NCBI RefSeq assembly: GCF_036971445.1
Contig: NC_091471.1
Span: 260,462,001 to 260,526,000, forward strand
DNA: 64,000 nt
Reading direction: 5' to 3'
Source of the DNA: Narcine bancroftii
Lineage: Eukaryota
Positions 5,367 through 55,344 of the stretch are shown one piece after another. Position 1 is the stretch's first letter, and each line of letters begins with the position of its first letter. The notes under the pieces are model-generated. The model was not told the DNA's origin. It ran no database searches and worked only from the letters and a program-made list of their open reading frames with translations. A program made the translations under genes and the position numbers.

Positions 5367-5916
5367 TCTTGATCAAAACCTGCAATTTAAAAATTATTCA
5401 TATCTCTCTCGATCATCATGTCTCATACTCCTTCCATGCCCATTAACTCCATCCATCCTCTCCCTCCCATATAAAATTGCTTTCCATCTTTACCTCCCTT
5501 AACCTCCTCAACCCATGTTTCTCCCTCTTTTCCCCACTCCCATCTCATTTCCACTCTGCAAATCCATCCTATCTCTTCCCTTCTGCCTCCCGTCTCTCTC
5601 TGCCTTTCTCCTTGGTCTTTATCTCCCATTCTCGATCACACCTCTCCTCCACCAATTCTTACTCTATCCCTGTTTCTCACTTCCCTCTGAAAACCTCTTC
5701 TTTCCTTATATCCCCATCTCTCTATCACTTACATCTCTCCTTCCATCACTCTGCTCCTTCTCACCCTGTACCATCTGGTTCTCCATCTCCTCTGTCCCCT
5801 TTCCTCCCCTGTCCCTCTCTTTATATCCCCTATCATATCCACTCATTCCTCCCTTTCTCTCCAACCCTCTCCTTTCAATTATTCAGCCCACCTTCCTCCC
5901 TCTCACCTGCTCTTCC

Positions 5917-6678: not shown

Positions 6679-7143
6679 TCTCTCCAGCCCTTCCTTCAGA
6701 CCCCCTCTCTTCCTCAATCCCACTCCCACCTTTCCTGACCCTCTTCCTCCTTCACTGTCCCCCACCCCATGTCCCTCCTCTCTCCCTTTGTCCCTCACTC
6801 CCTGCCTCTTTCTGTCTCACTCTTCTTCCATACCCTCCCTCTCCTTCCTTGTGTTTCCCCCTCTCACCCTTTCCACCTGTTGCCCCCACCCCATCTCTCT
6901 CAGGGCATATCCCTCCCCTTTGCTTCGTTGTCCACCTTTTTCTATAAACCTTGCTCACCTCTCTCTCTCTCTCTCCTCCCTTCTACCCCTCCCATGTACC
7001 ACCCTTTGACCCACCTTCCCACTTTCTCTGTTCCTCCCTCTCTCATTTGATCCTCCCCTTCCCTTTCTCCCATACCCTTCCCTGTCTCTCTTCGTCCTTG
7101 TGCCCTTCCCTCTCCTTCTCTCTCCCTCCATTTACACCCCCTT

Positions 7144-13369: not shown

Positions 13370-13675
13370 CTCCGTCGCCATTTTTGATACGGGCTAATCT
13401 GACCAACCTGAAGCGACTAAAAGTGGAGGAGGGCTGAATTGGTCGGCGCCATGTTTGTAGCAGGCGTGCTTGCCTGCCCCATCTCCCCCCTCTTTTTTTT
13501 TCAGGCCAACGCCATCTTTGTGACGGGCGAGGGAAATGACCTCCTGATTGGCTCAGCGTCATGTTTGTTGCTGGCGGGCCGCGCCGGCCTCCTGGTTGTG
13601 CGCGCGGGGAGGGGGCGGAGAAGAGGAGGAGGGGGGAGGGGGGTGGGGGGAAAAGCAGCGCGAGGGAAGATGGCG
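13370..13675. promoter_or_regulatory. CpG-island promoter of ELL, probably bidirectional
   Basis: CpG-rich; ATTGG at 13547-13551; GC box GGGGCGGAG at 13612-13620. YY1-type AANATGGCG motifs on the minus strand (13376-84, 13447-55, 13510-18) and on the plus strand over the ELL ATG (13667-75). Confidence 0.75.
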
Positions 13676-13804
13676 ACGCTGAAGGAGAAGCAGAGCTACG
13701 GGCTCTCCTGTGGCAAACTCAGCTCGGGCAGCAAGGTTTCGGTGCTTCACGTCAAACTCACCGACAGCGCGCTGCGCGCTCTCGAGGCCTATCAGAACTG
13801 TAAG
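13670..13804 (+). CDS. ELL: RNA polymerase II elongation factor ELL, coding exon 1 (45 aa)
   Basis: MATLKEKQSYGLSCGKLSSGSKVSVLHVKLTDSALRALEAYQNCK versus human ELL MAALKEDRSYGLSCGRVSDGSKVSVFHVKLTDSALRAF. Kozak AAGATGG; donor AAG|gtgagt. ELL is favoured over ELL2, but the paralog is not formally tested. Confidence 0.92.
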
Positions 13805-16439
13805 GTGAGTGGAGGAGGGGGGGGGGGGAAGAGAGAGAAAAGTGGGGGGGGGGGGGGGTCAGCGGTCCGAACTCCCCCTCTGCGTTCACGGCCACTGGTC
13901 CCGAAGCCCCGGATTTCAGGGGGTCATTCCCTGCTAATGTCGTGTCTACATTAATTGTCTCCCCCGTGGGTGCCTTAACTGTTTGGCAGTAACAGCTTAT
14001 TTATGGCACCTGGTTAGGGACTGCTTACTCTTTATTGCTCACTCCTTTCACCCGACGATACTTAAAACCCAAGGTTCCCTTGAGTGCACCCCTGAATCCC
14101 CCTTCCTCCCTTGACCAAGACTCCTTCCACCCTGGGTTACCCGAAACACCAGCCCCATACATATTCCAAAGCTCAATCTGAACCTATCCCCTCTGTTTTC
14201 CCCTTCAAGATGCACACGTTCTGGTGGTTTATTCCTTGAACTCTCTCTTGTTTACCACTCTTCTTTCTCCCCCCCCCCCCCCCTTTCTGGAATTCCATGT
14301 CCCCCATTTCCTTTCCCTCCACCCTCCATCTAAACACTCATTCTGCAGTGCCCCATTACCTCCCCCCCCTGCCGATCACTGGTTCCTTTTGCCATGGCTG
14401 CAGTTCCTTTCAAGTAAATTTTCTCAGGAATTGACACTGAAATTTTGTCACAAGAGTTTGTGGCTGAATGAGCTATTGTATCCCCATTTGCAATATTCAT
14501 ATTCAAACTATTTCTCTCATCTATGAATTTTAGTGGGTACCTTTTGATCTTAAAAGTCAAATGCTCTTCTGATTTTTCATGGGGTGACAGTCATTTGGAA
14601 TTGATTAATATTCTAACGTTTCATCAGTTTGTGGGTATTGGGATTATAATATATCTTATGTATTTATGCTGTTTACCATTGCTTTTAATGAAATTGTGTT
14701 TGCAAGTCCAAAGGGTGACTGCAGATGTGCTCAACTGAAGGATTTAGACAATTATTTAATTGTATTTGTCTATTAATTGCTGCTTAGTTTTTAATTATTG
14801 AGATTAAGATTTTATGGAACATAGGAGTTTAATCTGATGAGTGGCCTTGTAAATTATGATGGGTGTTGTAAGGTAGACAGTGAACACTTATGAATGAGAC
14901 AACAACTTGTACATTAATATCAGGTAATCTCAGTTAAATGCAAGGTTTATCCCTAGAAATTCAGCAACAAATTCAGGAGAGGCTTTTTTTTCCCAAAGAA
15001 TGGTGTCGATGTGAAAATTATTACTGTAGGGAGTGGTTCAGGTTTTTAGCTACTATTGTTTTCAAGACAAAACTAACAAATAAGGGAGAGGAGTAGAAGA
15101 AAATGGTGATAAGGTGCCATAATGCTTGAAGGCTCATTTTGGATCATTAATGATGGCATAGGTCAGCTAGTCCAAGCAGCCTCATAATTCTATATAGAAA
15201 TGGAAAATAATTGATGAGTAATAAACCATAGGTGAAGCTATTAGGTCCATGCTCCTCAACAGACCTCTCTGCATGCCACTAGATGTAAATTTCCATAGAA
15301 ATAAAAGGATGTGATACATTTAGAAACTTCCTGAAATGGATTTGAAATGCTCTTCACTGACACTCCTATGGGAATCTTGCAGTTGTAAATCATATTCATA
15401 AATGTGCCAAAACTTTATATGACCGGAAAGCTGTCTTTCTCTTCTGAACACTTTGCTTCTAGAAAATGAGGAGGGAACAATAGTTTGGAATTGTTTCTGG
15501 AAGAGACTCTTGTCAGTTATAACTTGGCTGGATCCTGATTTGCTGGAGTATGGATTCTGAATGCATTCCACTCATTTGATTTAATTTCCACTGTGCTGTT
15601 TAATCTGAGCAGTTTTAAAACAGATTTTAGCAATCGCTCTCGATTGATATTAGAACTGCTTTTTGCCTTCTGAAATTCGGGAATTAGCTTGACATTGTTG
15701 CTTTCCAATTGCCTTTGAAATATTTTCAACGGTCCTACTGGTACTTAATAATAGGTTGGTCTTAAAAAATGTGTTTTTTATTAGAAGCAATGACTTGGGT
15801 TTGTCCCTTCATGGGTTAAAAGCTTGATGCTGCAACATTAATTCTCATAGTAAGTTGGTTTTTCACATTTGTAGGAAGGAAATGGATTTGTATGGCCACG
15901 TATCCCTGGTCAAACAATAATACATTTATGCAGGATCTCTATATTAATAATATTTAACAAGAATGTTATCAACAAAATGTTTTTAGGGACAAATGAGACA
16001 CAGAGAGGGAAAAGGGTTAGGGCAAGATTTCCAGTGTACAAGGCCAGATTTTGAAGAGTATACCAGGATTTGGCTACTTAGCTGCTTGCCAATTTATTAT
16101 CAGTAAACCTACTCCTGTGACTACAGCAGAATTGAACGCAAGCGAGTATTTCAAGAAGAATTCCTCTAGTCTAAGGCAGAGTACAGTGGATGGTGATTTT
16201 TAAAAAAAGTTTGTCTGCAGATCACTTCCTTTCTGAATTTTGTCCTAATTTGAAGCAAACGGTTACTGTAGATGTACAAATACTAGCTTTGTTATCTCTG
16301 AGCCCAGGTTCTCTTATTTAATTGAATTGTTTGTCATGAATACTGAGATTCACTGAATGACTATTTGCAGGTTTGTGTGCCATTCAGGTAAATCGACCTA
16401 TATGTAGTAAGAATAAAAGGTGCAAAGGATAATGTTTCA

Positions 16440-17085
16440 ATATAACAAAGGTGTAAGGCATCATATTTCACTCATTTGAGGTCCATGCCAGAACCTGATA
16501 ACAGCTGGAAAGACTGTCCTTGCTTCTGGAGATGAATATTGTGCACCTTCTGCTTTACAAGAGTAGGAGAAGAGATATGACTGGGGTGGAACATGTCCTT
16601 TAATACATTTGGTGCTTTCTGGAGGAAGTGGGAGGTGAAGATGGATTTGATGCAGGGAGGGGTAGTCTTTGTGATGGCCCAAGCTACTTTTACAACTATA
16701 GTTTCTTTCAGTCTTGGGTGGAGCAGTTCCCATACCAAACAGTGAGGTATCTGGGCAAGATACTGTCTGTTGTGTATCTATAAGAATAAGTGAGAGGAAC
16801 TCACAACATGCCAAATTTCCAAAGGCTTCTGAGGAATTAGAGGTGTTGGTGAGGTTGATTGTAGTATCAATTTGGATCAGGGCAGGTTGTTGATCATGTT
16901 TATGCTTAAAAAAAATAGGTTCTTAACTATCTCTAATTCAGCCCTGTTGATACAGATGGGTGTGTGCTCCTCCCTATTTCTTGAAGTCCATGACGAGTTC
17001 CTCCAATTTGCTGACATTGAGGGAGAAGTTATTGTTCTGACACCATGCCACTAGATTCTCTCATTGTTGTTTGAAATCTGGCCTA
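16440..17085 (-). mobile_element. Decayed Rex/Babar LINE fragment
   Basis: Same motif set as other copies (LKDMFHPSH.., FPAVIRF). Confidence 0.6.
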
Positions 17086-19141
17086 CAATGAAGATTATTA
17101 CCCACTGGAATTGGACACCATAATTGCCACACGAATGTTGGCCTTGCCATCAATGCTCACATCCTGAATAATAAATGCAAAGCAGAAATTATTAAATTCA
17201 GTCCAAATCTGGAGGTTACCTAGTGGAGTAGATTGACATGGGTTGAGCTGTGAATATAGCTGAATACTACTGTTGAAAACTTGTTCCTGATCTGATGATG
17301 GGGGAACGTCATTGGTGATTAAGCTGGTGATGTCCAGATGAAGGTAAATTCCCCAATGAGCCCCTGTGGATCATCATGTGGCTTGAGCCAATCATCTACC
17401 TTTAAGACCTGAGATCTGAAGTCTTCTCACATTGACCATCCCTGGTATTTTGGGAGATTGTTATTACTGGAGTCCATCCAATATTTTGTCAAGCCCACCT
17501 TGGGAGTACATAACATAATTAGCAGGAGTCAACCTTTTGGACCACTCCATTTTTCCTACTATGTCATTTTCGTTTATCTGCAAATTCCCCATAACCCCCT
17601 GATTTTTTTTTTCATATTTATTTCTGCTTTTGAATGAAGTTGATGACTGCAGCCCTGAGTGGAAAAAGTTGCTTCTCCTAAATCAAGACTGTACCCTGGT
17701 TCTAGATACCTTAACCAGGCACTGTGGCAACATTTCCACCGCTTCTATGTTTTTAAAACAATTGTAGAGTCATCTGTACGATCACTTTTATTTTTATAAA
17801 CTAAACGAATTGACTTGATCTCTCAAAACATAAATCTATCCATCCTAGGAACTAGTCTGGTGAATGTTTGACTACCTCAAAGGTGAGCATATCCCTTTTT
17901 AAGTGAAGGAGCTCAAACTGGTGTGTAAATTTTCAGGTAGCATAGGGTATCTCTTATTTTTGTGCTCATGTCTTGTAGCAAGGTGAGTATATTATTTTCT
18001 TTTTGGTCATTAACCCTGTATGTTGGCTTTCAGTGACCTATACAAGGAAACCCAAGTCCCTTTGACTTGCCTTCATTTTGCAATCCTTCATTTATTTATT
18101 TTTTTTTGTTTTGCACAGTGAATTAATTTTGTTTTTTTCTGTATATCCAATCTGCCGTGTTCTTGTTCATTCCCATGGAAACCTTTATTATCTCCACTGT
18201 ACTGATAATCCCATCTACGTTTCTATCATCAGCCAATTCATATGTGCACAGTAGTTTATTAATTGCTGGAATCAAAGTGCTGAATCTTGAGATGCTCCAC
18301 TTTTTATGTGTAACAAACTGGGTAAGTTTAACTGCATGTATTTACTCTGTGCCAGTAAATTGCCCCAAATGTGCTCTCTTCCCATTGACCAATAATCTCT
18401 TTAGTACAAATGTATCAAACATTTGAAGATCCGAGTCCAAATGCCCATAAACCATGTGCTCATCATTATTACAGCATTTACATATTTTTTAAAACTAAAT
18501 TAGTTGATCAATCATAAATCCATGCTGTCATTGTTCAGTCATAATCTTTTCAAGGTATTCTGTTATTGCATTTTGTCATTGTAGATTCCAGGATTTTCCC
18601 TTCAATAGAGACCAAAATGAAAATTGATGAGCAGGTCAAGTATAACTTGAAGATACAGATAACTCTCCTCTCCGTTGTTTAAGGGATGGATTGGAGAGGC
18701 TGTCAGTCTTGTAATTGGGTTAAATTCATCCATTTGGTGTATAGGACATACCTTGGCAGACTTTCACATTGCCAGAGAGTTGGTTGATACATTTTCTCCT
18801 TGCTTGGTGAGAATCAAAGGGCCCAGTGTGTGTACTTGGATCATGAATGTCAGGAAGATTTTGGAATTTAACTTGAACTTAAGCATTGAAGCTTGAGTAG
18901 ATTGCTATAGTAGCAATGCCATTTTGTACAACAGTTGATACCTGATAGTCCAATAAAATTGCCAGTTTTTTTCTCTCTAATTCTAAAGACATTTATTATG
19001 CTTATTCACTTTGGATAACAGTTTGCTTTATTGCAACCACTTTTCTGGATTGTTTCATTTTCCACATTGTCGTAATGGTATCTTTTGATTTACTTTTGTC
19101 TGGGCCAATTTTTTTCTTTTATGTCACCATTGTAAAACATT

Positions 19142-19782
19142 AATTTGGAACCTTGCCCATTAATTGCTTTGCTTGGTTTTTCTCGTGATCCAGATAAACA
19201 TATCGGCATCTCACGAAAAAGTTTTAGCTTTTGCCGCGTTGATAGCTAGACGAGCAATCTTATTGAAATGGAAAGATGATTCATCCTCTCTTCATACACA
19301 GTGGTTATATGATGTAATGTCCTGTTAAGTTTAGAAAAAAATAAATATAATTTTAAAGATGGAAAGTTTCAATTTACGAAATTGTGGGGCCCATTCTTAG
19401 AATTTTTTTTATAATTGGAAGAATTAACAATTATTGTATGTTCAGGTGGTTCATTGCCTGTTCTCCAGGGGTCGCCAGTGATCTCATATTATTGATTTTT
19501 TGATAGAGGAAGGGGATAGATTAGATTTAGTTTTAGATTTTAGGTTTTTTTTTCTTTTCCTTTATTTTATTCAAGTTTTCAATAAACGGGTTTAACATGG
19601 TTGCATAGATAATTTCAATCAAATGTTTTTGAGGTAATAACAATTATTGATGTAGTTTTATCTACTTTTTTTCCTCATTGGCTTTTTTTAATGTGCGCTT
19701 GCTTGTATACAAATGAATTATGTAATTGTCAATTCTGCATTTATGCTTATGTTAAACTCAATAAAAATATTTTAAAAAGAAA
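19142..19782 (+). mobile_element. 5'-truncated L1-clade element of a second family
   Basis: LAFAALIARRAILLKWKD..QWLYDVMSC..LEKI remnants, AATAAA and A-rich tail, 10-bp TSD GTAAAACATT (19132-41 / 19783-92). Confidence 0.75.
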
Positions 19783-20627
19783 GTAAAACATTGCAAGATG
19801 CTTCATGGAATGATTAGTCAAAATTTTGGACAGAACCACATCATTTGGTTTAATCGTGTCTTAAGGGAGGTAGGAGAAGTTTTAAAAAAACCCAGCTTTG
19901 CTCAGAGAATATCAAAACTTGAAACCTAGCAATTGAAAGACTGACAATGACCTGCTGAGTATCTCCAGAAGAGATGTTTTGTTCCAGAGTCGACCATCTG
20001 CAGTCTCCTGTGTGTCTGGAGTAATGGTGGTGACTATGCATAAGACTTTGAAAATCTTTGGAGTGGAGGCTGTAGAATTGTAGACTCACTGTCAATACCA
20101 CCAAACTTAGTGAATGTCATACAAGTTGAGGTCAGTAAATTACACACCTATTGCTGCATAGTGTTCCCACATCCCTCTTGTACTCTTCCTGTGATTAGAG
20201 AGATTGCTCATTTACTTAAATCCTCATTTATTGTTTGGGCCTGCATGGCAGCAATTTGCATTGATTCCATGTCTCTAATTTAGGAAAACATTCCAAGCTA
20301 CTTGACGTGTACAGTCAGGGAACTGGCAATATAGTTGTTACTGAGGAAGATCCTAGCCTTGCCATTCCTGATTGCCCATACAGGTGCATTATCAGTACTG
20401 ATAAGCAGTGAAACCTTGAATATTTTTTGCTTCCATAGCCAGTCATATGGAGGTCAGTATGTTGATAGTCACTTAATTGAGATCAACGGACTCAGCAGAA
20501 TCAAACCCGGCATTGTTCCACTCTAGTGACTAACTCCAGAGCAATATGTCAACTTTTGGATGAGATTTTAAACCATTTGCATTTAAATTGTAGCCAAAAA
20601 AAATCTCATGTCCCCCTTTCAAAGGAG

Positions 20628-20822
20628 GACGTGACATAAATCCACTGTGTAAAAGCACCAAAATGCTGGAGGAACTCAGCAGTCTTGCAATGTCGATAAG
20701 TATCTTGAAAAAAATACATATCTTGCCTCCTGTGGATGCTGTGAGACCTGCTGAGCTCCCTCCTCCAGCACTTTTGTGTTTTTACCACAATCACAGCATC
20801 TGCAGACTTTTGTCTTTCACTC
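20628..20822. mobile_element. Fold-back (inverted) pair of Penelope-derived tails
   Basis: aaaatgctggaggaactcagcagtcttgca is complementary to tgtgagacctgctgagct..ctccagcactttt. Confidence 0.6.
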
Positions 20823-21746
20823 CATTTGCTTTGTTTTGGTTCACACTTGAATGAGTGCGTAATCTTAGCAAACAGTGAAGGAATGTTAGAAATACTTGAC
20901 ATTATTATGGTGTCAGCTTAGTGATTCAACCAATATTACTAAAACACATGGTATATAAAAAAAAATAAAATACTGGAAATAATGGACCTCAGAAATAAAA
21001 ACAGGAAATGGAGGAAATACATGAGCCTATATTTGCAGAGAAAAATAGTTAATCAAAGAACGTCAACTGCAGAGGCAAAGTCTCATTGTCTCCACCAATG
21101 ACTTAGAAATCCAAACATGTTTTCAGTTGGGTTACTTCCACACTGCATACTAATGTTATTTTCTTGATCATTGGTGCCATTATTTAGACAACTGATTCTT
21201 TTAAAATATTATTCTAATGTAATTTGTGCACTTTTACATGCAGTGGTGTTGGAAATGCTTATGGATATGTATTTTAATGTGTGATATGCCCCCATCATTA
21301 GATGCCAGGTGTCTTGTCCCATCTTCTGATTTCCCTCATTGTCAAGTTTTTTGTTACCTGATTGGACAAGTACAACCCGACAAAACATTGTTCTTCGGTC
21401 CTCGGTGCAAAACACGCAGACGCACAACCAGACACAACACCAATACATGCAGGACAAGTAATCCCATGTGCAAATACATAAGTATTGTTTCATGAATATG
21501 AGAGTCTCGGATGGTAAGTGTAAGCTGATCCTGTGGCTGTTCAGTATTCTCACTACTCATGGGAAGGAGCTGTTCGTCAGCCTGGTGGTGCTGTCTCTGA
21601 TACTCTTCCATCTTCTTCCCCAACGGGAGCAGCTGAAAGATGTGTGGAAGGGGTTCTTGATGATTTTGTATGCCCTCTTCAGACAATGATCTTGATAGAG
21701 CATGTTGATTGGGGAGAAAGGAGACTCCAGTGATCCCCTCTGCCAC

Positions 21747-21750
<4 letters not shown>

Positions 21751-21784
<34 letters not shown>

Positions 21785-24192
21785 TATTTTTCACACCATA
21801 AATCACATTAGCCATGATATACACTATTTCTTTTCACACATATACAGTGACTTTTTCTCCCCCCCCCCCTTTCCTCCCAAACCACCCCCCCACCCCCCCC
21901 TCTCATCCATTTTAGGTATACAATCTAGGTTGCATTAATCCAGTCAGACAATGTTGTCATTCAACAAAATTACACCAGAAATTCTACTGAGTCCATTCTT
22001 TTCTTTCCTTCTCCTTCCATCAACTTAGGTAATGTTTGTCCCCGGTAGGTTTTCGCTATTGTATTTAATGTAAGGCTCCTATACTTGTTCGAATATTTCA
22101 ATATTATTTCTTAACCAATATGTTATTTTTTTCTAATGGAATACATTTATTCATTTAAATTTGGTAGTTTCTTCCTTTTAATTTGGTTATGTATTCCATT
22201 AATATTTAAAGACATATAGTTCAGCGTAGCCCTTTTATATTTTGTTTATCTTCTCTTTCCGTTTTTCCATCATTACCTTTCCTCCTTTTCCATTTCTGTT
22301 TTCTTATTTTCAACTCTTCATAAGACAACATTCCTACAACATCTAACATTTTCCTTATTCTCCTATTTCTATCTTATTTATCCCCAATCTCCCCTTCACC
22401 TCCTGAGTTGTCCTTTATCCCTTGTCGGACAACCACATCTCCCCTCTCCATTTGGATTTGCGAATCCACTCGCAAGCGTCAACTGATTGTGCAGTGACCG
22501 CTATTTCCCCCCACCCCGCCTCCCCCAGAAAAGATTTCACTTTTCATATGTCACAAAGGTCCCTCTTTTAATTCCCTCCTTATTCTCTCTATTCCATTAC
22601 CTTCCCTTATTAATTCTTATCTATACTATCTATATTTTCCTCTAAGTACAGATACATTCATGTATGCTCATTGTCTCTATTCACTCTTATACCTCTTTAC
22701 CTGCATACATATCAATCGTGATCATTTTTACTCTCATTACCCGTCTTCATCCCTCAGTCTATTTTTGTCTTTACCCACATACATATCAGTCGTGATCATT
22801 TTAACTCTCATTACCCGTCTTCCTCCCTCAGTCTATTTTTGTAATTGTTCTGCAAATTTTCGTGCTTCTTCTGGATCCGAGAATAGTCTGTTTTGCTGTC
22901 CTGGAATAAATATTTTCAATACCGCTGGATGCTTTAGTATAAATTTATACCCTTTCTTCCATAAAATCGCCTTTGCTGTATTGAACTCTTTTCTCTTCTT
23001 TAGGAGTTCAAAACTTATATCTGGATAAATGAAGATTTTTTGCCCTTTATACTCCAGTGGTTTGTTGCCCTCTTTTACTTTTTCCATTGTCTTCTCCAGT
23101 ACCTTTTCTCTTGTAGTATATCTTAGGAATTTTACTACAATAGATCTTGGTTTTTGTTGTGGTTGTGGTTTAGAGGCCAATACTCTATGTGCCCTTTCTA
23201 TTTCCATTTCATGCTGTAGTTTTGGACATCCTAGGGTCTTAGGGATCCACTCTTTTATAAACTCCCTCATATTCTTGCCTTCTTCATCTTCCTTAAGGCC
23301 CACTATCTTTATGTTATTTCTTCTGTTATGGTTTTCCATTGTATCTATTTTTTGAGCTAGTAGTTCTTGTGTCTCTTTAGTTTTTTTTATTAGATTTCTC
23401 CAATTTCTTTTTTAAGTCTTCTACCTCCATTTCTGCTGCTACTGCCCGCTCTTCCATCTTGTCCATTTTTTTTCCCATTTCTGTTAAGGTCATCTCCATT
23501 TTAATTATTTTCTCCTCTGTGTTGTTTATTCTTTTTCTTAAATCCTTAAATTCCTGTGTTTGCCATTCTTTAAATGATTCCATGTATCCTCTAATAAGAG
23601 CAAGTATATCCTTTACCTTGCCTCTCTTTTCTTCTTCTATTTCACCATACTCTTCCTCTTCTTCTTCCTCTGGGTTGACCATCTGTTGTTTCTTTGTTGC
23701 CCTTTCCTCCTCTTCTATCTTGTTTCTATTGTCTTCTGTGGTCTCTTCTTGCTGCAGGTGTTCTGCAGCTGTCGTTGCCGGCTGTGGAGATCGACTCCCC
23801 AGCTGGTCCCCCCTCCCGTCGGTGTGTTTTTTTTCATTCGCATCGCGCATGCGCGAAGTTTCGCGCATGCGCGGTTGCGCACTTTTGTTCGGCTCTGCGA
23901 GCCATTTTTGTAGTCCATTATTTACCGACCTGAGGGAGCGGGTTTCTCTCTCCGCAGCGGGCCTCTTCGGACAGGTAAGGCCTTCACCTTTTTCCTCCTT
24001 TGTCTTCTCTTCCTCTCTTCTTACCGTTGCTTTCGACTTTTCTTTTTTTGTCGCCATCTTCTTTCCACCTTTATACTCACTTTTCTGTAACTTTTATTTC
24101 TGTGCCTTTGTGTTTTCTCTTGTTTTTCCCGACTTTTCTGGAGAGGGCTGGAGTTCACCGTCCGGCCACTACTCCATCACGTGACTCCTCCC
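21751..24192 (-). mobile_element. ORF1-only, internally deleted L1 ('half-L1'/HAL1-like), 2.44 kb
   Basis: 16-bp TSD CCCCTCTGCCACTCTT (21735-50 / 24193-208), poly(A), same 5' end as the L1 at 44973, ORF1, spacer, then the ORF2 start joined to the ORF2 end at ~22156. Confidence 0.92.
22833..24057 (-). CDS. L1 ORF1p (coiled coil, RRM, CTD), ~407 aa with one frameshift in an A-run near 23385
   Basis: ENHNRRNNIKIVGLKE, EIERAHR, IYPDIS and KRKEF motifs. Removing one A joins ORFs 23377-24057 and 22833-23339. Confidence 0.85.
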
Positions 24193-27169
24193 CCCCTCTG
24201 CCACTCTTGTGGTCCTGTGGATTGACCTCCAATCCATTTCTCTGCAGCAACCGTACCTCACTGTGATGCAGCCAGCCTAGGCACTCTCGTTTGATAGAGC
24301 TCCTGTGGAAGGTTGACATGATGGTGGCCAGTAGCCTTCCCCACTTTAGTCTTCTCAGGAAGTGTAATCTCTGTGGCACCTTCCTTACAAGTGAAGAGAT
24401 GTTGAGTGTCCACGATAGGTCACTAGTTAAGTGAACTCCAAAGAATTTGATGCCCTCTGTCCTCCACTACAGAGTTGTTGATATGTAGTGGAGTGTGATT
24501 GTTCCTCATCCTTCTGAAGATCACGATCATCTCCTTCATCTTGTCCACGTTGAGACTCTTGGACCATCTCATGAGATTTTTCACCTCTTTGTAGTATGTT
24601 TTACCTCTGCATGAATTGAATATGGGCAGATATGATATCTCATCTCTTGATTGAACGCACAAGATTTTTGTTGGGGATGTGAGGGTTGGAGGTAAGGATA
24701 TGGCCCAAATTCAGTTGTCTGAGCACAGCTTGAAAGCTTTGACTGTCCAGTATTCTAGCTCATTCATCTGTTAACATTAACCTGTCAGCCCAGTAAGTCA
24801 GAAGGTTTCTTCATTTGTCACCAAGCCAGATAAGTGCCTTCCCGTAATTGGTCTGTGGGTCCTTTGAATAATAGTTATGCTAAGTTCATTGTGTTTCTAT
24901 AAATTATTAGTTCATGGCTGTTAATATGTCAAGTAAGTGCCTGTTATGAATTTCATCCTCCCTCAAGCCATATCTATATGCTGTATTTTGGTCCATGATC
25001 AAGGTTTTCGGTGCATAATTTTAGCTGACACTGGGAGTTGAGGCTTTGCATATTGTATTTGTTCCCTTAAGCCCCTGCATTTCTCATTCTTTTAAGATGT
25101 CTGTTAAAACCTACTTTGAACATTTTCTTTCACTTGCACCTTGTGAGACTCTTTATCAAATTTTGTTTGATAACCCTCCTGTTCCACACCATATTACATC
25201 TATTATATTTAATTATTATTAGTGTTATATACATGCACTTATGTGCTGCATTTTTAGCTTTGGATGAACTATTACGCACTGAAGACCTGGTCAGGTGGAT
25301 TGTAAATATTCCCAGAGAACCATTGCAAGAAAAACAGCAAATTTTTCTATTGTCCTGAGTGGTACTTTTTTCCTTCAGCTTGTTTGTGTAAGCTATTGTA
25401 GGCAAATTGGCTGCTCTATTTACTCACATTAATTATTTCACTGCTATGTAATTCATTATATTTGAAACATTTCAGAATGTTTCCGTGAGGCAAAATAAAA
25501 GTGATGTATAAATTGGTCCCAACTCCCTCCTGTCTGGTTTTCTGCCATCCTGCAGTTGATTTTGCAGCCTGAAATTGATCCCAGGCTCTCTCATAGTACG
25601 TTAAGAAAGTATTGTGGATAATTTCAATTTGGTTCTTATCCAATGCACAGAGCCAACATTCCAGCAGACAGTGGCATAGGCACCTTTCGTTGCTTTCATT
25701 GGTGAGATTATTTTAAATGTTAATCATAATTCCTTTCCATTTTATCCTTCACAAATTTCCCAATATTGATTAGTGACCAGGACATAGCGAATGGTCTGGC
25801 AAGATATCACCACACTGCCTCTGGTTTCTCTGAGCATTATCCAGGCAGGTATATTCAATGGAAACCTTCCATTGATGAACCTGATGGCTGCATTGGTGGT
25901 GTGCAGGATGTGAAACTCACCTTCTGAATGCAGACCCATAAATCCTACATGCTGAACAATGGTCTTGTGTGCATTGTGCTATGATGCGCATGGCGATAAT
26001 CTTTCCTTTGGAAATGTAATGGACTGGAGATGACACCTTCCTAATTTAAATCAACTTGGAGCAAAAATAAATCAGTGCCTGAAAAGTGAATGATGTCAGT
26101 TGGCTTGTAATTCTCAGAATTCAATATTCAGAATTCTGAGTTGCTTCAACCAATTTTATGTAAGCAGACAATTTTGGACGGAGAACCGTGTTTCATTTTA
26201 GTGTGTAGGTACTCCTCATATAATTGGTCCTGTGCCAGCTTATTGGAATTAGATGGACAGATCTTTCAGTGCCATAGCCTGTGCCCCTTTCATTTTTTAC
26301 CATTCTTTGTTGTATTTGGTTCCACTGTCCTTTTTGGCAATGCATTCACCTCATAGCTTGACTAAACAAATTTCTTCTCATCCAATTGAACTGGGGTTCA
26401 AAAACTAGACCTCCATTTATGAATGGACTGAACTGTTTTGTCAATATTGGGCAAAGATGAAGAGAAGTGAAGCTTGAATTTTGATATTAACGCAGCAATA
26501 CGCAGAGAATGTTTCAGTTGAAGTATATCTTGGCTGCGTCTTTATACAAATATGGTTTCCTATTAAATTCTGAAATACCAGATCAAGCAATCTAGCCAGC
26601 TTCCCATAGACATCATGGCTCCATTCTCAGTTTGTGGCCGAAGAAAAATAACAGCTTGCATTTAACTGTAACTAGTTTGAAAATCCTATAGCTGCAGAGC
26701 TACAGTTTGAAACATAATGTTTCATAATGCATTACGTTCTCTCAGTCTGGTGTTACATTTTGGCATTAAGGTAACATTTCTCAGACTTGTCTGAATCCTG
26801 AGCCTGATATTTTCAGATCTCCCATGGCAGATTTATTGTTCATCATGTCTCCCTCCTGTTTTTTTCTACCATCCTGCAGCTGATTTTTTTCCCAACCTCA
26901 AGTGTTCTCAAAGTTCAGTGAAGAAGCATCATGGACAATCTTGATTTGGTGCTTATCACTTGAATGGGGGCACTTTCCAGCAGACATTGGGATGGGCAGT
27001 TAGAAATGTATTCTTGCCCCTGGCTTCCACTCCCACCACTCTTTGTACATTGTCCAAAGATATTTGATCATCTTTTACATGCCTGATGGTGGCCACCAAC
27101 TCTGCTTCATCTCTTTTACATCTACACTTTTGCTGAGCTCAAAATGACATACAGCTTGAAAGCATTCTG

Positions 27170-43532: not shown

Positions 43533-45102
43533 ATGTATACATTTCCTTTTCACTGAATGGACAACATTTTTCACTCATTTTGTACAAGCTGCACCAAATG
43601 TTAAATGATTTGTAAATTAATCCTTCAGCTCTCTGCTTGAACATGTAGCCCACACAAGCCAGTACTTGTGTATATTACTACATCTTGACTCAGATGTATG
43701 CTCAGTTTCCCTTGCATTTTAATGTTTTAGCCCAGTCCCAAAAATGCAGCTTCCACCCAAAATGTAAAATTACAATTGCAGAAAAAAATGTAAACCCAAC
43801 TTTTTTCTCATACCGTTTGAATTTTACTAGTTCTGTTGAAGAAACACTGCAGGGTTCAACTTCTTACTGCCGATGATAGTTATTCAGAGAGCATGAATAA
43901 GGTATCTTGTGAGTAATTTTGGGGACTATACTAATGATGTGAAGACATCAGTCTATGTGGAATTTAAATTCTGATAATTTTTTTAAAAATTGCACTATTA
44001 GAAAGAACTGTGAGACTAGCTTATTGTTCATGTTGCCTCTGTATGCTAAAGAGTTTGTAGGTTCAGAGGTTTAGAAATTCTTCCCAGTCTCATTTATAGT
44101 CTTGTGATCTATTTTCAATCTTTGCAAAAATGGTGCATGATGGGACTGATTTGGGAGGCCATGGAATTTATGAAAACATTCCAAATTTTTCTTACACTTT
44201 AGTTGAAAAATGCAAAAGAATTTCCCGTGATGCATCTCATGAATATTGTAGTTTGGATGTTGGTTTTTTAAACTCTCCTTGTGGTATACAGCTATTGCAT
44301 TTGAGTTTGATTCCTATCCTCAGACTGGCTTCTTCTGGACTTCCAAGCAAGTACCTTGGAATGTTGGTTAAGTGATTGGTCAATTGAATTGGGGGTCGAT
44401 GTCAATCTATGGATGCTGCTTGTTGAGTTTCTCCAAAACATTTGAGTTGCATCATGCTTGTCTTGTCCATTTTGTTCCATTCGTGGTTCTTTCCCCATAA
44501 CCATGTTCTATGAGTATTTATGAGTTACTCTTCTAATTTCAGTTTTCATGAGCCATGCATACACTTGTTTGTTTCACCTATCATTGTTCTTTGGCCAAAG
44601 GTCTTAAATCTACTCACTAATATTGATGGAGCAGTTATTTTTATTATTTATATTATCAAACCCTTTATAATTTTGAAAACCTCTATGACAATTTTTTTTA
44701 CTCTTTTGGTGAGTATGGGAGATGTTAACATTTGGACCAAGACATTTGGGTATAGTCAAGAAACATTTCTTCAAAAAAAGGTGGTGGAATTGAAAGTGGA
44801 ATACTTGTAATATATTGTGCAGCTGAGGGGACAATTTAAAATTTCAGACAGTCACTGAGAGGTAATTGGTATGTAATGATGTTGTGGATTACAAACTGAT
44901 AGGTATCTTGAGCTGTTGCAGATTAGGTCTGATCTAATTATATAGTTGATCGGCTTCAAGATCTCCCTTCTGGAGAGGAGTCGCGTGATGAAGTAGTGGC
45001 TGGTAGGGGAACTCCAGCCCTCTCCAGAAAAGTAAAAAAAAGATAGAGAAAAAAACAAAGGCACAAACATAGAAACCATAACAAAGTGAAAGTGTGGAGA
45101 AA

Positions 45103-46400
45103 ATGGCAGCGAAGAAAGAAAAACCAAAAACAACGGGAAGAAAAGAAGGAAGGACATCGGAGGAGGAAGGTGAAGGCCTTACCGGTACGAGGAGGCCCGC
45201 TGTAGAGAGAGAAGCCCGCTCCCTGAGGTCAGTGGAAACATTGAACTCAGGACTACAAAAATGGCTCACGGAGCCAAACAAAAGTGCGCAACCGCGCATG
45301 TGCAAGACAAAAATAACACTGACGGGAAACAGACAACTACAACACAACAGCAAGACTCTCAACAGGAAAACATAGAAAATAACGAGATCAAGAAGGAAGA
45401 GAATAAAAATAAGAAATCAAAGAAACAACAGATGACCAACCCAGAGGAAGAAGACCAACACCAAGACACTTTTAATAAAAATAAGAAGACCAAGAATACC
45501 CAACAAAATAAAACAAACAACCCAACAAGAAAACCAGAAGAGACAGAGGTAAAGGACACAGATCCTGGAGTGGACTCAGAAGAAGAGGAGGAAGAACACA
45601 GAGAAATGGAAGATGAAGGGAAGGGCAAGTACATGGATTTTTTTTTAAAGAATATATGGAAACAGTAAAAGAATGGCAGTCACAAGAATTCAGTGAAATA
45701 AAAAGAAGAATAAAAAGTACAGAAGAAAAAGTGAATAGATTAGAGATGGTCATGTCAGATATAGGAAAAAGAGTAGACAAGGTGGAAGAATGAGAAACAG
45801 CCATAGAAATGGAAGTAGAAGAATCTGATAAAAAAGTTAAAGAGACACAGGAGCCGTTAGCTCAGAAGATAGATATAATGGAAAATTATAATAGAAGAAA
45901 CAATATAAAGATAGTGGGCCTTAAGGAAGATGAAGAAAGCAAAAATATAAAAGAATTTATAAAAGAATGGATCCCCAGCGTCCTAGGAAGACCAGAATTA
46001 CAGGAAGAAATGGAAATAGAAAGGGCACACAGAACATTAGCCCCTAAACCACAACCACAACAAAAAACCAAGATCCATTCTAGTAAAATTCCTAAGATAT
46101 ACAACAAGAGAAAATATATTGGAGAAGGCAATGAAAAAAATAAGAGAAGACAAAAAACCACTGGAATACAAGGGTCAAAAAAATTTTTTCTATCCAGATA
46201 TAAGTTTTGAACTCCTGAAGAAGAGGAAGGAGTTCAATGCAGCAAAAACGACCATATGGAAAAAAGGTTATAAATTTATGGTAAAATGCCCAGCGGTACT
46301 TAAAATAGTTATTTCGGGGCAGCAAAGCAAACTATTCTCGGATCCGGAAGAAGCACGAAAATTTGCACAACAACTACAAAACAGACAGATGAAGAGATGT
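45103..46400 (+). pseudogene. L1 ORF1 (several frameshifts, one stop)
   Basis: MAAKKEK..., ENYNRRNNIKIVGLKE, EIERAHR and FYPDISF distributed over several frames. Confidence 0.85.
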
Positions 46401-46427
46401 AAAAAGAACAAAAATGACAACAAACTA

Positions 46428-46489
<62 letters not shown>
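46428..46489. repeat. (GT)n(AT)n microsatellite in the L1 inter-ORF spacer
   Basis: Directly visible. Confidence 0.9.
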
Positions 46490-46495
<6 letters not shown>

Positions 46496-46877
46496 GTATA
46501 GATAAGAACTAAGAAGGGAAAGAAAGGAAATAAGGAGAGAATTAAGAGAGTGACCTTTGTTATATATGAAGATTAAAATCTTTTCTGGGGGGGCTGGGTG
46601 GGGAAGAATAACGGTCACTGTGAAATCAGTTGACGCTTGCGAGCGGATTCGCAAATCTAAATGGAGAGGGGAGATGTGGTTGCCCAACAAGGGACAAAGG
46701 GCAACTCAGAAAAGGGAGGGACTATTGGGGTTAAAGGAATTTTAGATATGAGAATAGTGGAAATATTTTATGTTTTAGAAATGTTGTCTTATAATGTGTT
46801 CAAAAAAAGAAAGCAGAAATGGATAAGAAGGGAAGGTGGTGATGAGGAAATGGAAAGGAAAGATAAACAAAGTATTA

Positions 46878-49800
46878 AATGAGTATGTTGAACTATGACT
46901 TTAAATATTAATGGAATACATAACCAAATCAAAAGGAAGAAACTGCTAAATTTACTGAAAAAAGAAAAAAATTGATATAGGATTCGTACAAGAAACACAT
47001 TTAACTGAAGTGGAACACAAGAAATTAAAGAGAGATTGGATAGGACATGTAACAGCAACATCATATAATTCAAAAGCCAGAGGAGTAGCTATATTAATCA
47101 ATAAAAATATACCAATCAAAATAGAAGAGGAAATAATAGATCCAGCAGGGAGATATGTAATGATAAAATGTCAGATATATTCAGAATTTTGGAATTTACT
47201 CAATGTATATTGACCTAATGAAGAAGATCAAAAATTTATGCAAGATATCTTTTTGAAGATAGTAGATACGCAAGGAAACATACTAATAGGAGGGGATTTT
47301 AACCTTAATTTGGACTCAAACATGGATAAAACTGGAAAAAAAACTAGCAGAAAGAACAAAGTAACCAAATTTATAATTAAATCGATGCAAAAAATGCAAT
47401 TTTTGGATATATGGAGGAAACAACACCCAAAGGAAAAAGAATATTCATATTATTCGGGTAAACATAAAACATACTCAAGGATAGACCTATTCCTGTTATC
47501 AGCCCACATTCAAGGGAAGAAGGTTAGGAAAACGGAATATAAAGCCAGACTATTATCGGACCACTTACCCCTGTTATTGGCCATAGAGCTAGAGGATATC
47601 CCACCAAAAATGTATAGATGGAGATTAAACTCCATGCTACTTAAGAGACAGGATTTTAGAGAATTAATTGAATGACAAATTAAAATGTACTTTGAAATAA
47701 ATACGGAATCAGTGAAAGATAAGTTTATACTATGGGACGCAATGAAAGCGTTCATCAGAGGGCAAATAATAAGTTATGTAACTAAGATGAAGAAGGACTA
47801 CAATCGGGAAACAGAACAGTTGGAAAGGGAAATAACAAATATAGAAAAAGAATTATCAATAAAGGAAGATGCAACTAAAAGAAGAGAATTGGCAGATAAA
47901 AAAATAAAATATGAAACACTACAAACATATAAGGTGGAGAAGAACATAATGAAGACAAAACAGAACTATTATGAGCTAGGAGAAAAAACGCACAAAATTC
48001 TAGCGTGGCAGCTTAAGACAGAACAAACTAAAAGAATGGTATTGGCATTAAGGAAAAAGGACAAACAAATTACATATAATCCAACGGAGATCAATGAAAA
48101 CTTCAGGGAATTCTACGAGCAACTATATCAAACTGAAAACAAAGGGAAAAAAGACAAAAAAGATCAATTTCTAACTAAAATTGAACTACCGAAATTACAA
48201 ACAGAGGAACAAAATAAATTAACAGAACCATTTGAAATGGAAGAAATACAAGAGATAATTAAAAAAACTACCGAATAATAAAACACCAGGAGAGGATGGA
48301 TTCCCAATAGAATTCTATAAAACATTTAAAGACTTATTAATTCCTCCCCTGCTGGAAGTAATCAACCAGACTGATAAAACACAAAGCATACCAGATTCAT
48401 GGAAAACAGCAATAATTACAGTAATACCAAAGACAGGGAAAGATCCACTTGCACCAGCGTCATATAGACCAATATCTCTACTTAACACAGATTATAAGAT
48501 AATAGCTAAACTATTAGCAAACGGATTGGCCGACTATGTACCAAAAATAGTAAATCTAGACCAAACTGGATTTATTAAAAAAAGACGAACAGCAGACAAT
48601 ATCTGTAAATTTATTAACTTAATTCATGCAGTAGAAGGAAATAAAACTCCAACAGTCGCGGTTGCTTTAGACGCAGAGAAGGTCTTTGACAGAGTAGAAT
48701 GGAATTATTTATTCAAAGTACTACAAAAATTCAGCCTACCAGAGAAATATATTAATTGGATTAAAGTATTATATAAGGGGCTATTGGCGAAAGTGACAGT
48801 AAATGGATATATATCGAAACAATTTAATTTAAGCAGATCAACAAGGCAGGGATGTCCACTATCTCCCTCACTGTTCGCGTTAGCTATAGAACCACTAGCA
48901 GAACTGATAAGAACAGAAAATAAAATAAGAGGGATAAAAATAAAAGAGAAGGAATATAAAATCAGTCTATTTGCAGATGACGTTATAATATACTTAACAG
49001 AACTAGAAATATCAATAAAAGAATTACATAGGAAATTGAAGGAATATGGAGAAGTATCGGGGTACAAGATCAACGCAAATAAAAGTGAAGCAATGCCAAT
49101 GAATAATGCGGATTTCACAAAGTTTAAGAAAGAATCACCATTTAGATGGCAAACACAAACAATGCGATACCTAGGTATACAACTAAATAAAAACCTCGGC
49201 CATCTATATAACTAAATTACCATCCATTAATGAAAAAATTACAAGACGACTTAGAGCATTGGAAAGACTTACCACTAACAGGATAAACTGTATTAAAATG
49301 AACATTTTCCCAAGGATACAATACCTATTTCAGTCATTACCAATATACCTAACAGAGAAATTCTTCAAGGAGTTAAAGAAAATAATAAGGAAATTCTTAT
49401 GGAAAGGGGGGAAACCGAGGATAGCACTAGATAAATTAACAGAATGGTATAAACAAGGAGGCTTACAACTACCAAACTTTAAAAATTATCATAGAGCCGC
49501 ACAATTAAGATACCTATCAAACAAGGGAAAAACCAGATTGGACTAGATTAGAACTAGATAAAATAGGGGAGAAGATACCTGAACATTTCCTATATAAATG
49601 GGATGAAAAATTGGTGTAACGTAGGAATTCACTGGTATTGCATCATCTGCTCAATATTTGGAAGAAGATTCATGTAGAAAGGAATAAAACAAATTACCAA
49701 CTACCAAAACTAATTCTGATGCAAAATCAGCTAATCCCTTTCACAATAGATAACCTTTCCTTTAGAGAATGGGAGAGAAAAGGGATCAAAAGAATAGAAA

Positions 49801-50657
49801 ATTGTTTTTCGGGAAATAAATTATTATCCTTTGAACAAATGAAGGATAAATATAATATAACTCACGATACAATGTTTGCATACTACCAACTGAAAACCTA
49901 CTTGAAGGACAAATTGGGAAACAGTCTGAGGTTACCAGAAGGAAGAAATTTTGAATATGTGATTACAGACACAATGATAATTTAAAAATTTGTAACAAAC
50001 ATGTACATCAAACTGCAAGAAAAGGAGAACGAGGAAACAAACGGTAAACCTAAACAAAAATGGGAACAAGATCTAAACATAAAGATAAAGAATGAAACAT
50101 GGGAGAAGCTATGCTCCGGATCTATGAGAAATACAATAAACATGAGGTTACGCATGATACAATATAACTGGATTCACAGGCTATACATCACACCTCAAAA
50201 GTTAAATAAATGGGACCCAACAGTATCAGACAGATGTTTTTGCTGTAAAAAGGAAATGGGAACAACAATTCATGCAATTTGGACATGTGAGAAAGTGGAA
50301 AAATTTGAGAAGATCTAAACCAGATATTAAATAAAATCACTAAAAGCAATATACCAAAAAACCCAGAGATCTTCCTCCTAAGTAATATAAGAAACAAAGA
50401 ATTTGGACTCGATTTGGATGGAGCACAAAAAAGATTTGTTATGATAGCCCTAGCTGTAGCCAAAAAATGTATTATTTCAACCTGGAAATTAGAAGACAAC
50501 TTGAGAATACAACAATGGTATATAGAAATGAACAAATGTATTCCATTAGAAAAAATAACCTATAATTTAAGAAATAACATTACAATATTTGAACAAATAT
50601 GGGAGCCATACATGAAACACAATAGAGAAATCCTACCGTGGACTTCCACCACCTAAA
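46878..50657 (+). pseudogene. L1 ORF2 (APE endonuclease, RT, CCHC), disrupted
   Basis: QETH, GGDFN, SRIDLF and SDH (EN); DAEKVFDRVEW, RQGCPLSP and LFADD (RT); CFCC..IHAIWTC. Multiple stops and frameshifts. Confidence 0.93.
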
Positions 50658-51417
50658 ATGACAGAAGGAGAAGATAACGAAAAGAACTGACTCAGTAAAA
50701 TTTCTTGTTTATTTTTATTAAGTGACAACATTGTTTAACGGGTTTAATGTATCTTATAGATGGAACTTCAAATAAATGGGGAAGGGGGTGAGGGAGGGAG
50801 GGAAGGGAGGGGGGAAAAGGGAGAAAACAACACTATATTTAAGAAGAAAAATGTCTGTATGTATCTTGGTCAATATGGTTTATAGTGTGAAAAATAAAAA
50901 AAAATTAAAAAAAAAGATCTCCCTTCTGAGATCTTCCAGGAAAGATGGGGTTTGTTGCTTTATAAAGGGGTTTGGCTGAATATGTGGGAAGATTTTAAAA
51001 CATAATAGTATATTTAGCAAAAAAAAGATGAAGTAGATCTCATCTTGGCTTCCATGCCCAGACTTTCAGATACAACTGAGGTATGTTTGTCTGCATGAAT
51101 ACACCTTCCTACCAACAAAGAGCTTCCAAATCCATGCAGCTAAACTAAGATCCACAGGCTCCTCCTTTCCATGGCTGGGAAAATAGTATGTCAGTCCTTC
51201 CTGTCTTCACACTAGCAGCAATTTAAGGGAACCAAATTGGGGTGTTGATTATTTTTTTCCTCTCTGTTGTAAATGTCAGAGTATAACCACTGACTTCCTT
51301 TCCAGTTTGCTTGTACATTCCATGTTTCTATTGTTGGTAAAGTTGCTGAACATTAACAATAAAAATATCAATAATGAATCAACTGGGGAATTTGGAAGGA
51401 CTTCTGTTCTCTTTGAA

Positions 51418-55296: not shown

Positions 55297-55344
55297 GGCA
55301 ATTTTTCCTGCCAGCCAGCTATACGCTTTGAAGGAAACCAAGGG
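55297..55344 (+). CDS. ELL: ELL coding exon 2 (GNFSCQPAIRFEGNQG, 48 nt)
   Basis: Polypyrimidine tract ttctccctttag| and donor GGG|gtaagt; phase 0/0. Matches human DSVSLRPSIRFQGSQG in length and motif. Confidence 0.9.

What the first reader, a model, noticed from the sequence alone, without database searches (positions are those of the whole stretch)
23844..23980. ORF0-like antisense ORF and phase-0 donor in the L1 family, in frame with ELL exon 2
Seen: on the L1-antisense (ELL-sense) strand there is a CpG-rich patch, ATGs at 23849 and 23867, a 42-codon open frame (MREVSRMRGCALLFGSASHFCSPLFTDLRERVSLSAAGLFGQ) and a strong donor CAG|GTAAGG at 23974/23975 in phase 0. The full-length copy keeps the same open antisense frame (MRGCALLFGSVSHFCSP...) and donor CCG|GTAAGG (45183/45182). 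ELL exon 2 is phase 0, so splicing would replace ELL's first 45 aa with an L1 peptide. Known: primate L1 has an antisense promoter and ORF0 that splices to neighbouring exons, and MLL-ELL fusions join ELL at this exon boundary (as recalled). Inference: a convergent ORF0/antisense-promoter system. An acceptor tttctctctccgcag| at 23957 could alternatively create a 17-nt frameshifting micro-exon.
Basis: partly seen in the sequence, partly recalled or inferred. Interest (0 to 1): 0.7.

Follow-up and report, generated by a model that had tools for sequence, protein, structure and literature searches.

The report
Cryptic antisense exon in ray LINE-1
A jumping gene inside the ELL gene of an electric ray carries usable-looking splice signals on its reverse strand, but the proposed extra protein is most likely a by-product of the element's normal gene, and the ELL messages seen here skip it.

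Summary
The letters are as reported; the ORF0 reading is mostly unsupported. The 42 codons are a slice of a 267-codon stop-free frame lying antisense over L1 ORF1 codons 28-70, not the 5'UTR. In this register wobble positions coincide with ORF1's, and the frame stays open in 62-73% of synonymous ORF1 recodings. Both ATGs are centres of GCGCATGCGC (NRF1-type) palindromes in weak Kozak context, and the first is missing from other copies. The full-length copy's donor faces away from ELL exon 2. All 5 RefSeq ELL isoforms found (Narcine bancroftii), and the exon-1 junctions shown in probable-RNA contigs, join exon 1 to exon 2; the contig tables were heavily truncated. That fits exonization from a host promoter, known for mouse L1. 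In ELL that cassette (217 nt) or the 17-nt micro-exon would break the frame. A mouse-like antisense promoter inside ORF1 is untested, not excluded. Side finding: this copy is a 2.4-kb ORF1-only element, possibly a half-L1 family.

The parts
21749..24193 (-). L1 copy A, about 2.45 kb, antisense to ELL in intron 1: 5'UTR, ORF1, inter-ORF region, first ~20 codons of ORF2 joined directly to the ORF2 end, 3'UTR, poly(A); flanked by a target-site duplication of about 16 nt
22833..24057 (-). L1 ORF1, broken by a 1-nt slip near 23381; an intact relative is 401 aa (P0009, 97% identical over the N-terminal piece)
   Evidence: (table 4)
23845..23872 (.). two GCGCATGCGC palindromes (23845, 23863), the only two in the window; each supplies one antisense ATG and ORF1 R-M-R; NRF1 consensus
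   Evidence: PMC10810270 abstract
23972..23980 (+). cryptic 5' splice site CAG|GTAAGG (8 of 9 consensus); the reverse complement of ORF1 codons Gly26-Leu27-Thr28-Cys29; overlaps an AGGCCT (ZFX-type) hexamer 216 nt from the element's 5' end
23935..23957 (+). weaker acceptor (12 of 20 pyrimidines) giving the proposed 17-nt micro-exon; no use seen
13670..13804 (+). ELL coding exon 1 (45 codons)
55297..55344 (+). ELL exon 2 (48 nt, phase 0 start); its letters follow exon 1 in a contig of run X5
44973..50916 (+). L1 copy B, full length (5.94 kb), decayed, about 78-85% identical to A; same orientation as ELL, so its antisense donor (45183/2) points away from ELL exon 2

Best explanation
The feature is the reverse strand of the first 70-100 codons of an electric-ray L1 ORF1. 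That stretch probably doubles as the downstream part of the element's short internal promoter (CpG-rich, with E-box, YY1-, ZFX- and NRF1-type motifs; inferred). The antisense open frame and its look of conservation follow from ORF1 coding (shown by simulation and register). The ATGs follow from the palindromes (shown). The purine-rich sense strand gives a pyrimidine-rich antisense strand with a cryptic acceptor (23757) and a strong cryptic donor (23974). When a copy sits antisense in a host intron these can be spliced in as a cassette exon from the host promoter (inferred from one gene model). In ELL the cassette is normally skipped; if included it is out of frame and would be a decay substrate (frame shown, decay inferred). 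No dedicated ORF0 protein is made or selected.
For: Frame register is Iyengar's 'frame 1' (64 of 192 stop-overlapping dicodons excluded; PMC11266595 section 6); PMC4182739 (abstract) reports automatic protection of one reverse frame, which I take to be this one. P(open 42 codons given ORF1 protein) 0.62-0.73 in 20000 recodings per model; only 2 positions could make a stop. The same register has only 2 stops in the 181 C-terminal ORF1 codons, expected 2.5-4.1. The donor GT is fixed by Thr28 in all recodings. A vs B changes in the block: 6 of 41 third positions vs 8 of 82 first/second (P 0.55), against 46 of 178 vs 40 of 356 in the ORF1 C-terminus (P 3e-5), so no protein-type signal in either frame. 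The 17-nt identical run over the donor is ordinary: 8 runs of 13-33 nt in the C-terminus, 7 in the inter-ORF region. The duplication that supplies the first ATG is absent from P0009 and P0004, present in P0001 and P0002. Both ATGs have C at -3 and +4. 5 of 5 ELL isoforms in the cluster are canonical at exons 1-2. X5 shows exon 2 letters after exon 1; X7 has one 3332-nt contig leaving at the exon 1 donor. P0005 (XP_069779284.1) holds a 70-residue L1-antisense block whose likeness starts at the 23757 acceptor and stops at the donor. Mouse precedent: commonest antisense donor is 52 nt into ORF1; 43 of 52 exonizations antisense (PMC2176070 section 6).
Against: The exact G|GTAAG arises in only about 4% of recodings at that site, and ATG plus open frame plus donor in 0.4% (site chosen after the fact). 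GEGLT is invariant in 5 of 5 ORF1 N-termini. The whole N-terminal piece has 0 stops where 1.6-2.1 are expected (P 0.07-0.13). Third-position change in the block is lower than in the rest of ORF1 (P 0.06). The RNA test is weak: contigs only, 15 of 279 joints and 24 of 2193 loose ends shown, and the X5 exon-1 contig stops at the donor, so a second branch exists there whose target was not shown. P0005 is a single predicted model whose transcript support I could not see; its next residue after the block (V) is also what unspliced reading gives, so a 5'-truncated copy is an alternative for that end.
Confidence: 0.7

Rival explanations
1. Mouse-like antisense promoter inside ORF1: the CpG patch with symmetric NRF1 sites fires both ways, transcripts start near 23750-23850 and splice from 23974 to downstream host exons (at this locus ELL exon 2, in frame). 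The peptide is incidental; the transcripts are rare or tissue-limited.
For: Mouse L1 has an antisense promoter in ORF1 with two main donors and over 100 fusion transcripts (PMC3985663, passages). Palindromic NRF1 sites, a YY1-type motif at 23901 and high CpG retention. Substitution pattern fits DNA-level constraint. The family is abundant in the three probable-RNA runs, strand unknown.
Against: The motifs sit at +38 to +350 from the element's 5' end, where a sense promoter needs them; a lizard L1 group starts with a similar GCGCATGC motif (PMC5381506 section 9). No protein beginning with this peptide among 1.84 billion representatives (1 relevant hit of 4, internal), though fusions could hide in host clusters. 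No ELL isoform with it.
Confidence: 0.2
2. Convergent ORF0: a selected 36-42 residue antisense peptide, translated alone or fused to host exons, replacing ELL's first 45 residues.
For: Phase-0 donor, in-frame ATG and open frame in both window copies; Met codon behind the second ATG in 5 of 5 ORF1 N-termini; longest in-phase upstream frame of any strong donor in the intron.
Against: Every frame property is explained by ORF1; no excess of third-position change; weak Kozak; first ATG polymorphic; 0 of 5 ELL isoforms; some contigs in X5 and X6 replace the palindrome region (tables 5 and 5c).
Confidence: 0.05
3. Poison exon of ELL: the 17-nt micro-exon or the 217-nt cassette is included at a regulated level and lowers ELL output.
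For: Both are bounded by AG and a strong GT and both shift the frame. RefSeq proteins would not show decay-bound isoforms. The X5 graph branches at the exon 1 donor.
Against: Both acceptors are weaker than the true exon 2 acceptor (12 and 15 vs 18 of 20 pyrimidines); X7's contig runs unbranched across the junction; the insertion is young, so a tuned role is unlikely (inference).
Confidence: 0.05

Closest known systems
Antisense splice sites and exonization of mouse L1 (PMC2176070; abstract and sections 6, 9 read)
   Same: Family-conserved GT/AG sites on the antisense strand; the commonest donor lies just inside ORF1 (+52; here +83); antisense-derived exons can code.
   Different: Here in a cartilaginous fish, with both acceptor and donor inside ORF1; use rests on one predicted model, not cDNAs.
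Mouse L1 antisense promoter in ORF1 (PMC3985663; passages read)
   Same: Location antisense to ORF1, donors that lead out of the 5' end, ATGs in the antisense sequence.
   Different: No promoter activity or start site shown here.
Primate L1 ORF0 and antisense promoter (PMC4908685 and PMC7746726, passages read; Denli 2015 not seen)
   Same: Antisense ATG, open frame and donor near the L1 5' end, with possible fusion to a host exon.
   Different: ORF0 lies within the 5'UTR of L1HS and L1PA2-8 and is shown to be translated; this frame overlies ORF1, has no stop before the element's end, weak ATG context and no evidence of translation.
Shadow antisense ORFs in frame 1 (PMC11266595, abstract and section 6; PMC4182739, abstract)
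   Same: Same register; stops are depleted and apparent conservation comes free with the sense protein.
   Different: Nothing essential.
HAL1, half-L1 (PMC5753468, passages; Bao and Jurka 2010 not seen)
   Same: Copy A encodes ORF1 only, with L1 ends, poly(A) and target-site duplication.
   Different: Described there for mammals; whether the deletion is shared by the ray family is only indirectly indicated.

Membership tests
Primate-type ORF0 | Antisense ORF contained in the 5'UTR, not over ORF1 | tested here: not met
   Overlies ORF1 codons 28-70; the 5'UTR is only 24058-24193
Primate-type ORF0 | Driven by an antisense promoter with mapped start sites | not testable with these tools
   Only unstranded contigs were available
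Primate-type ORF0 | Family-wide start codon in strong context (strong context recalled from Denli 2015) | tested here: not met
   C at -3 and +4 for both ATGs; duplication giving the first ATG absent in 2 of 4 other copies with an N-terminus
Primate-type ORF0 | Donor splices the ORF's own start to host exons | tested here: inconclusive
   0 of 5 ELL isoforms; none among truncated contig tables; the one model with the block has it internally
Primate-type ORF0 | Translated product | not testable with these tools
   No ribosome or proteomic data
Primate-type ORF0 | Frame kept beyond what neighbouring constraints impose | tested here: not met
   P(open) 0.62-0.73 under ORF1 alone; no third-position bias; two DNA copies only
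Primate-type ORF0 | Sequence relationship to ORF0p | tested here: inconclusive
   4 hits in 1.84 billion representatives, none a primate protein by name or look; no direct comparison with ORF0p was run
Mouse-type antisense promoter in ORF1 | Promoter-like DNA and donor antisense to the ORF1 5' part | tested here: met
   CpG o/e 1.18, motifs and donor at +83 of ORF1
Mouse-type antisense promoter in ORF1 | Antisense Pol II starts and fusion transcripts | not testable with these tools
   No stranded raw reads listed
Antisense L1 exonization | Canonical acceptor and donor on the antisense strand, shared by copies | tested here: met
   Acceptor 23757, donor 23974; donor also in copy B
Antisense L1 exonization | Inclusion in a host transcript | tested here: inconclusive
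   One RefSeq model with both borders at these sites; transcript support not visible
HAL1 (half-L1) | ORF1 present, ORF2 absent, L1 ends with poly(A) and target-site duplication | tested here: met
HAL1 (half-L1) | Many copies share the same deletion | tested here: inconclusive
   Flat DNA contig depth across the 2.4 kb and no listed loose end where the 5' part would run on into ORF2, but no bridging contig was displayed

The most novel reading that the evidence does not exclude
An L1 family in electric rays has its own antisense promoter inside ORF1, built on palindromic NRF1 sites, that makes a 36-residue leader spliced in phase 0 to host exons across many loci, including an ELL isoform lacking the same 45 residues that MLL fusions remove; it is spread by a high-copy ORF1-only element. 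This would be an independent origin of an ORF0-like system outside mammals.
Probability: 0.07. Interest if true: 0.65.

Novelty: new member of a known kind. Interest (0 to 1): 0.22.

Why it matters
As it most likely stands, it is one more case of antisense L1 splice signals, and a clear example of how a frame-1 shadow ORF mimics a conserved peptide. It would matter more if the antisense promoter proved real, since L1 antisense promoters and fusion transcripts are described from human, mouse and pig in the papers read, and my searches found none for sharks or rays. A high-copy element with a ready-made phase-0 donor could then supply alternative starts to many genes. The possible half-L1 family is a separate lead (no paper held HAL1 together with shark).

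Tried and rejected
No whole genome was held, so copies could not be aligned genome-wide. Two metagenome scans for ORF1 relatives: 587 pattern matches each, none confirmed. Word-based protein search with the 42 residues for longer proteins: 0 of 30 candidates; it missed P0005, so it is no evidence. Of the 4 exhaustive-search hits I set aside P0006, P0007 and P0008 as repetitive, unrelated proteins. Run search: no holder on record as RNA and no raw reads listed, which is no evidence on expression; I laid 4 of the 17 listed runs. Absence of a 23974 loose end or a 13804-23758/23958 joint is weak because most rows were hidden. Donor positions are not among the 40 variant rows shown, but 29 rows were hidden. 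The host part of P0005 gave only generic coiled-coil look-alikes. A spliced origin for copy A's ORF2 deletion was rejected: copy B shows no GT at the 5' break. Special conservation of the donor block was rejected. Earlier findings of the scan: none in three look-ups. Donor strength was scored by consensus matches only, without a trained model. Bao and Jurka 2010 was not held; Denli 2015 was not read; no supplements were read, and those of PMC2176070 and PMC3985663 may list more sites.

Full report
Setting. The window holds an FKBP-type gene on the minus strand and ELL on the plus strand. ELL exon 1 matches RefSeq ELL of the electric ray Narcine bancroftii at 100%, and the L1 ORF1 piece has 4 relatives among 434 candidates, all N. 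bancroftii models. Intron 1 (13805-55296) holds two related L1s. Copy A (21749-24193, minus strand, 2.45 kb) has a target-site duplication and poly(A) but lacks nearly all of ORF2. Copy B (44973-50916, plus strand, 5.94 kb) is full length and decayed.

Observation. The ATGs, translation, donor, acceptor and phases are as reported, and the CpG patch is real (o/e 1.18 vs 0.27 for the intron). Three things change the reading. First, the frame has no stop from 23381 to 24181, has an earlier ATG at 23582 and runs through the donor. Second, it overlies ORF1 codons 28-70, whereas primate ORF0 is contained in the 5'UTR (PMC4908685, passages). Third, copy B lies in ELL's own direction, so its antisense donor cannot reach ELL exon 2.

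Is the frame more than chance? No. Its codons take ORF1 positions 2, 1 and 3, so wobble sites coincide. This is the register in which 64 of 192 stop-overlapping dicodons are forbidden, the one most likely to stay open (PMC11266595, section 6). ORF1 is 45% A and 16% T. Only 2 positions in the 42 codons could give a stop, and the frame stayed open in 73% (ORF1 codon usage) and 62% (uniform) of 20000 synonymous recodings each. The same register has 2 stops in the 181 C-terminal codons (expected 2.5-4.1) and 0 in the 225 N-terminal ones (expected 1.6-2.1, P 0.07-0.13). A selected antisense peptide in this register would show excess third-position change. Between A and B the block shows none (6 of 41 vs 8 of 82, P 0.55), while the ORF1 C-terminus does (46 of 178 vs 40 of 356, P 3e-5). 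This rests on two copies, one decayed, so power is low.

The ATGs. Each is the centre of a perfect GCGCATGCGC palindrome, the only two in 64 kb, which is the NRF1 consensus (PMC10810270, abstract). A palindrome puts ATG on both strands, so ORF1's R-M-R gives an antisense ATG for free. Both have C at -3 and +4, whereas ELL and ORF1 have A and G. The 18-nt duplication that supplies the first ATG is missing in the intact 401-residue ORF1 P0009 and in P0004, present in P0001 and P0002. Nearby are an E-box at 24178, YY1-type motifs at 23901 and 24053 (motif names recalled) and AGGCCT at +216 from the 5' end, overlapping the donor; ZFX binds that hexamer about 240 nt downstream of CpG-island starts (PMC5848610, abstract and passages). 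Fish and frog L1s have 5'UTRs of about 0.15 kb, and one lizard group begins with a similar GCGCATGC motif (PMC5381506, passages and section 9). I infer that the CpG patch is the downstream part of the sense promoter. Its direction was not tested.

The donor. It is the reverse complement of ORF1 Gly-Leu-Thr-Cys. GT is fixed by Thr28; the fuller G|GTAAG appears in about 4% of recodings, and ATG, open frame and donor together in 0.4%, at a site chosen after the fact. It is one of 5 sites with at least 8 of 9 consensus matches on the plus strand of the intron, and 14 of 33 sites with at least 7 of 9 have an in-phase ATG upstream. The 17-nt identical run across it in A and B is matched by 15 runs of 12-33 nt in the C-terminus and inter-ORF region. 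GEGLT is invariant in 5 of 5 N-termini. So the donor is family-typical and strong but not shown to be selected as a donor.

Is it used? An exhaustive search with the 42 residues gave 4 hits in 1.84 billion representatives. Three are unrelated repetitive proteins. The fourth, P0005 (XP_069779284.1, N. bancroftii, uncharacterized, 219 aa), holds a 70-residue L1-antisense block after 123 non-L1 residues. That is the pattern of a cassette exon transcribed from a host promoter. Caveats: it is one predicted model, its transcript support was not visible, and its first residue after the block is also what unspliced reading gives. Fusions hidden inside host-protein clusters would be missed.

At ELL. 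All 5 isoforms in the N. bancroftii ELL cluster carry exon 1 joined to exon 2 with no L1 peptide. I laid 4 of 17 listed runs on 13500-24300; all are contigs, three guessed to be RNA. X5 has a contig with exon 2 letters after exon 1, which also shows it holds spliced RNA. X7 has a 3332-nt contig that leaves at the exon 1 donor without a break; its further letters were not displayed. No joint to 23758 or 23958 and no loose end at 23974 was shown, but only 15 of 279 joints and 24 of 2193 loose ends were displayed, and one X5 contig stops exactly at the exon 1 donor, so a minor branch is not excluded. In ELL the cassette is 217 nt and meets a stop; the 17-nt micro-exon also shifts the frame. Human MLL-ELL fusions do mostly join exon 2 (PMC4779576, passages), but this only reflects the phase-0 intron.

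Comparison. The nearest known case is mouse L1, whose commonest antisense donor lies 52 nt into ORF1 and where 43 of 52 exonizations were antisense (PMC2176070, sections 6 and 9); here the donor is 83 nt into ORF1. Mouse L1 also has an antisense promoter inside ORF1 with fusion transcripts (PMC3985663, passages), so overlap with ORF1 does not rule out a promoter; pig L1 has weak antisense activity too (PMC6501411, passages). The element fails ORF0 membership on location, start context and independent constraint; promoter and translation could not be tested. I found no paper on an antisense promoter or ORF0 in sharks or rays: none of the 15 listed of 117 papers mentions elasmobranchs, and searches list mammalian work. 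The library lacks most subscription papers. PMC3192792 and PMC4182739 were seen as abstracts, PMC7746726 and PMC5753468 as passages; no supplements were read.

Verdict. Shadow frame plus cryptic antisense exon, normally skipped in ELL: 0.70. Mouse-like antisense promoter with incidental peptide: 0.20. Selected ORF0-like peptide: 0.05. Regulated poison exon: 0.05. Interest 0.22. The side observation that copy A may belong to a high-copy ORF1-only family deserves its own check: DNA contig depth is fairly flat from the 5' end to the 3' end (about 0.4-0.75 million against 0.87 million summed; the tool warns this is no copy number), 18 contigs show the 3' end continuing into ORF2, and no listed loose end shows the 5' part doing so.

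Noticed in passing
window 21749-24193 (-), junction at 22156/22157: Copy A is an ORF1-only L1 with about 3.56 kb of ORF2 missing, yet has both ends, poly(A) and a target-site duplication. Flat contig depth and near-identical intact ORF1s (P0009) suggest a high-copy half-L1 (HAL1-like) family; no paper held HAL1 with shark.
   Followed up: partly
window 22833-24057 (-): ORF1 of this family is about 401 aa, longer than the 780-1059 nt given for fish L1; the extra N-terminus is CpG-rich, carries promoter-type motifs and shows no third-position bias, as if promoter DNA had been taken into the ORF.
   Followed up: partly
proteins P0001, P0002, P0009: RefSeq names these L1 ORF1 products 'GrpE-like', 'PPP1R1B-like' and 'transcription elongation factor, mitochondrial isoform X1': annotation artefacts.
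   Followed up: no
proteins P0001 and P0004: Both start with ORF1 and end in non-L1 tails, suggesting sense-strand L1-to-host chimeric models.
   Followed up: no
ELL isoforms P0065, P0010, P0068: 3 of 5 isoforms have a 26-residue insertion between exons 2 and 3 that is absent from the two other elasmobranch ELLs read; its DNA was not located in the window.
   Followed up: no
window 54902-55016 and 57002-57116: A 115-nt inverted repeat at 97% identity flanks ELL exon 2 and could pair in the pre-mRNA.
   Followed up: no
window 45183/45182 (-): Copy B's antisense donor points in the direction of the FKBP-type gene on the minus strand about 40 kb away, across the ELL start; use not tested.
   Followed up: no
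window 22694-22842; 5915-6694; 51418-51617: A 74-nt tandem duplication in copy A's inter-ORF region, a long C-rich tandem array, and a 200-base assembly gap.
   Followed up: no
window 13785: ELL exon 1 also carries an AGGCCT hexamer, and its start codon sits in the same YY1-type context as the L1 ORF1 start.
   Followed up: no
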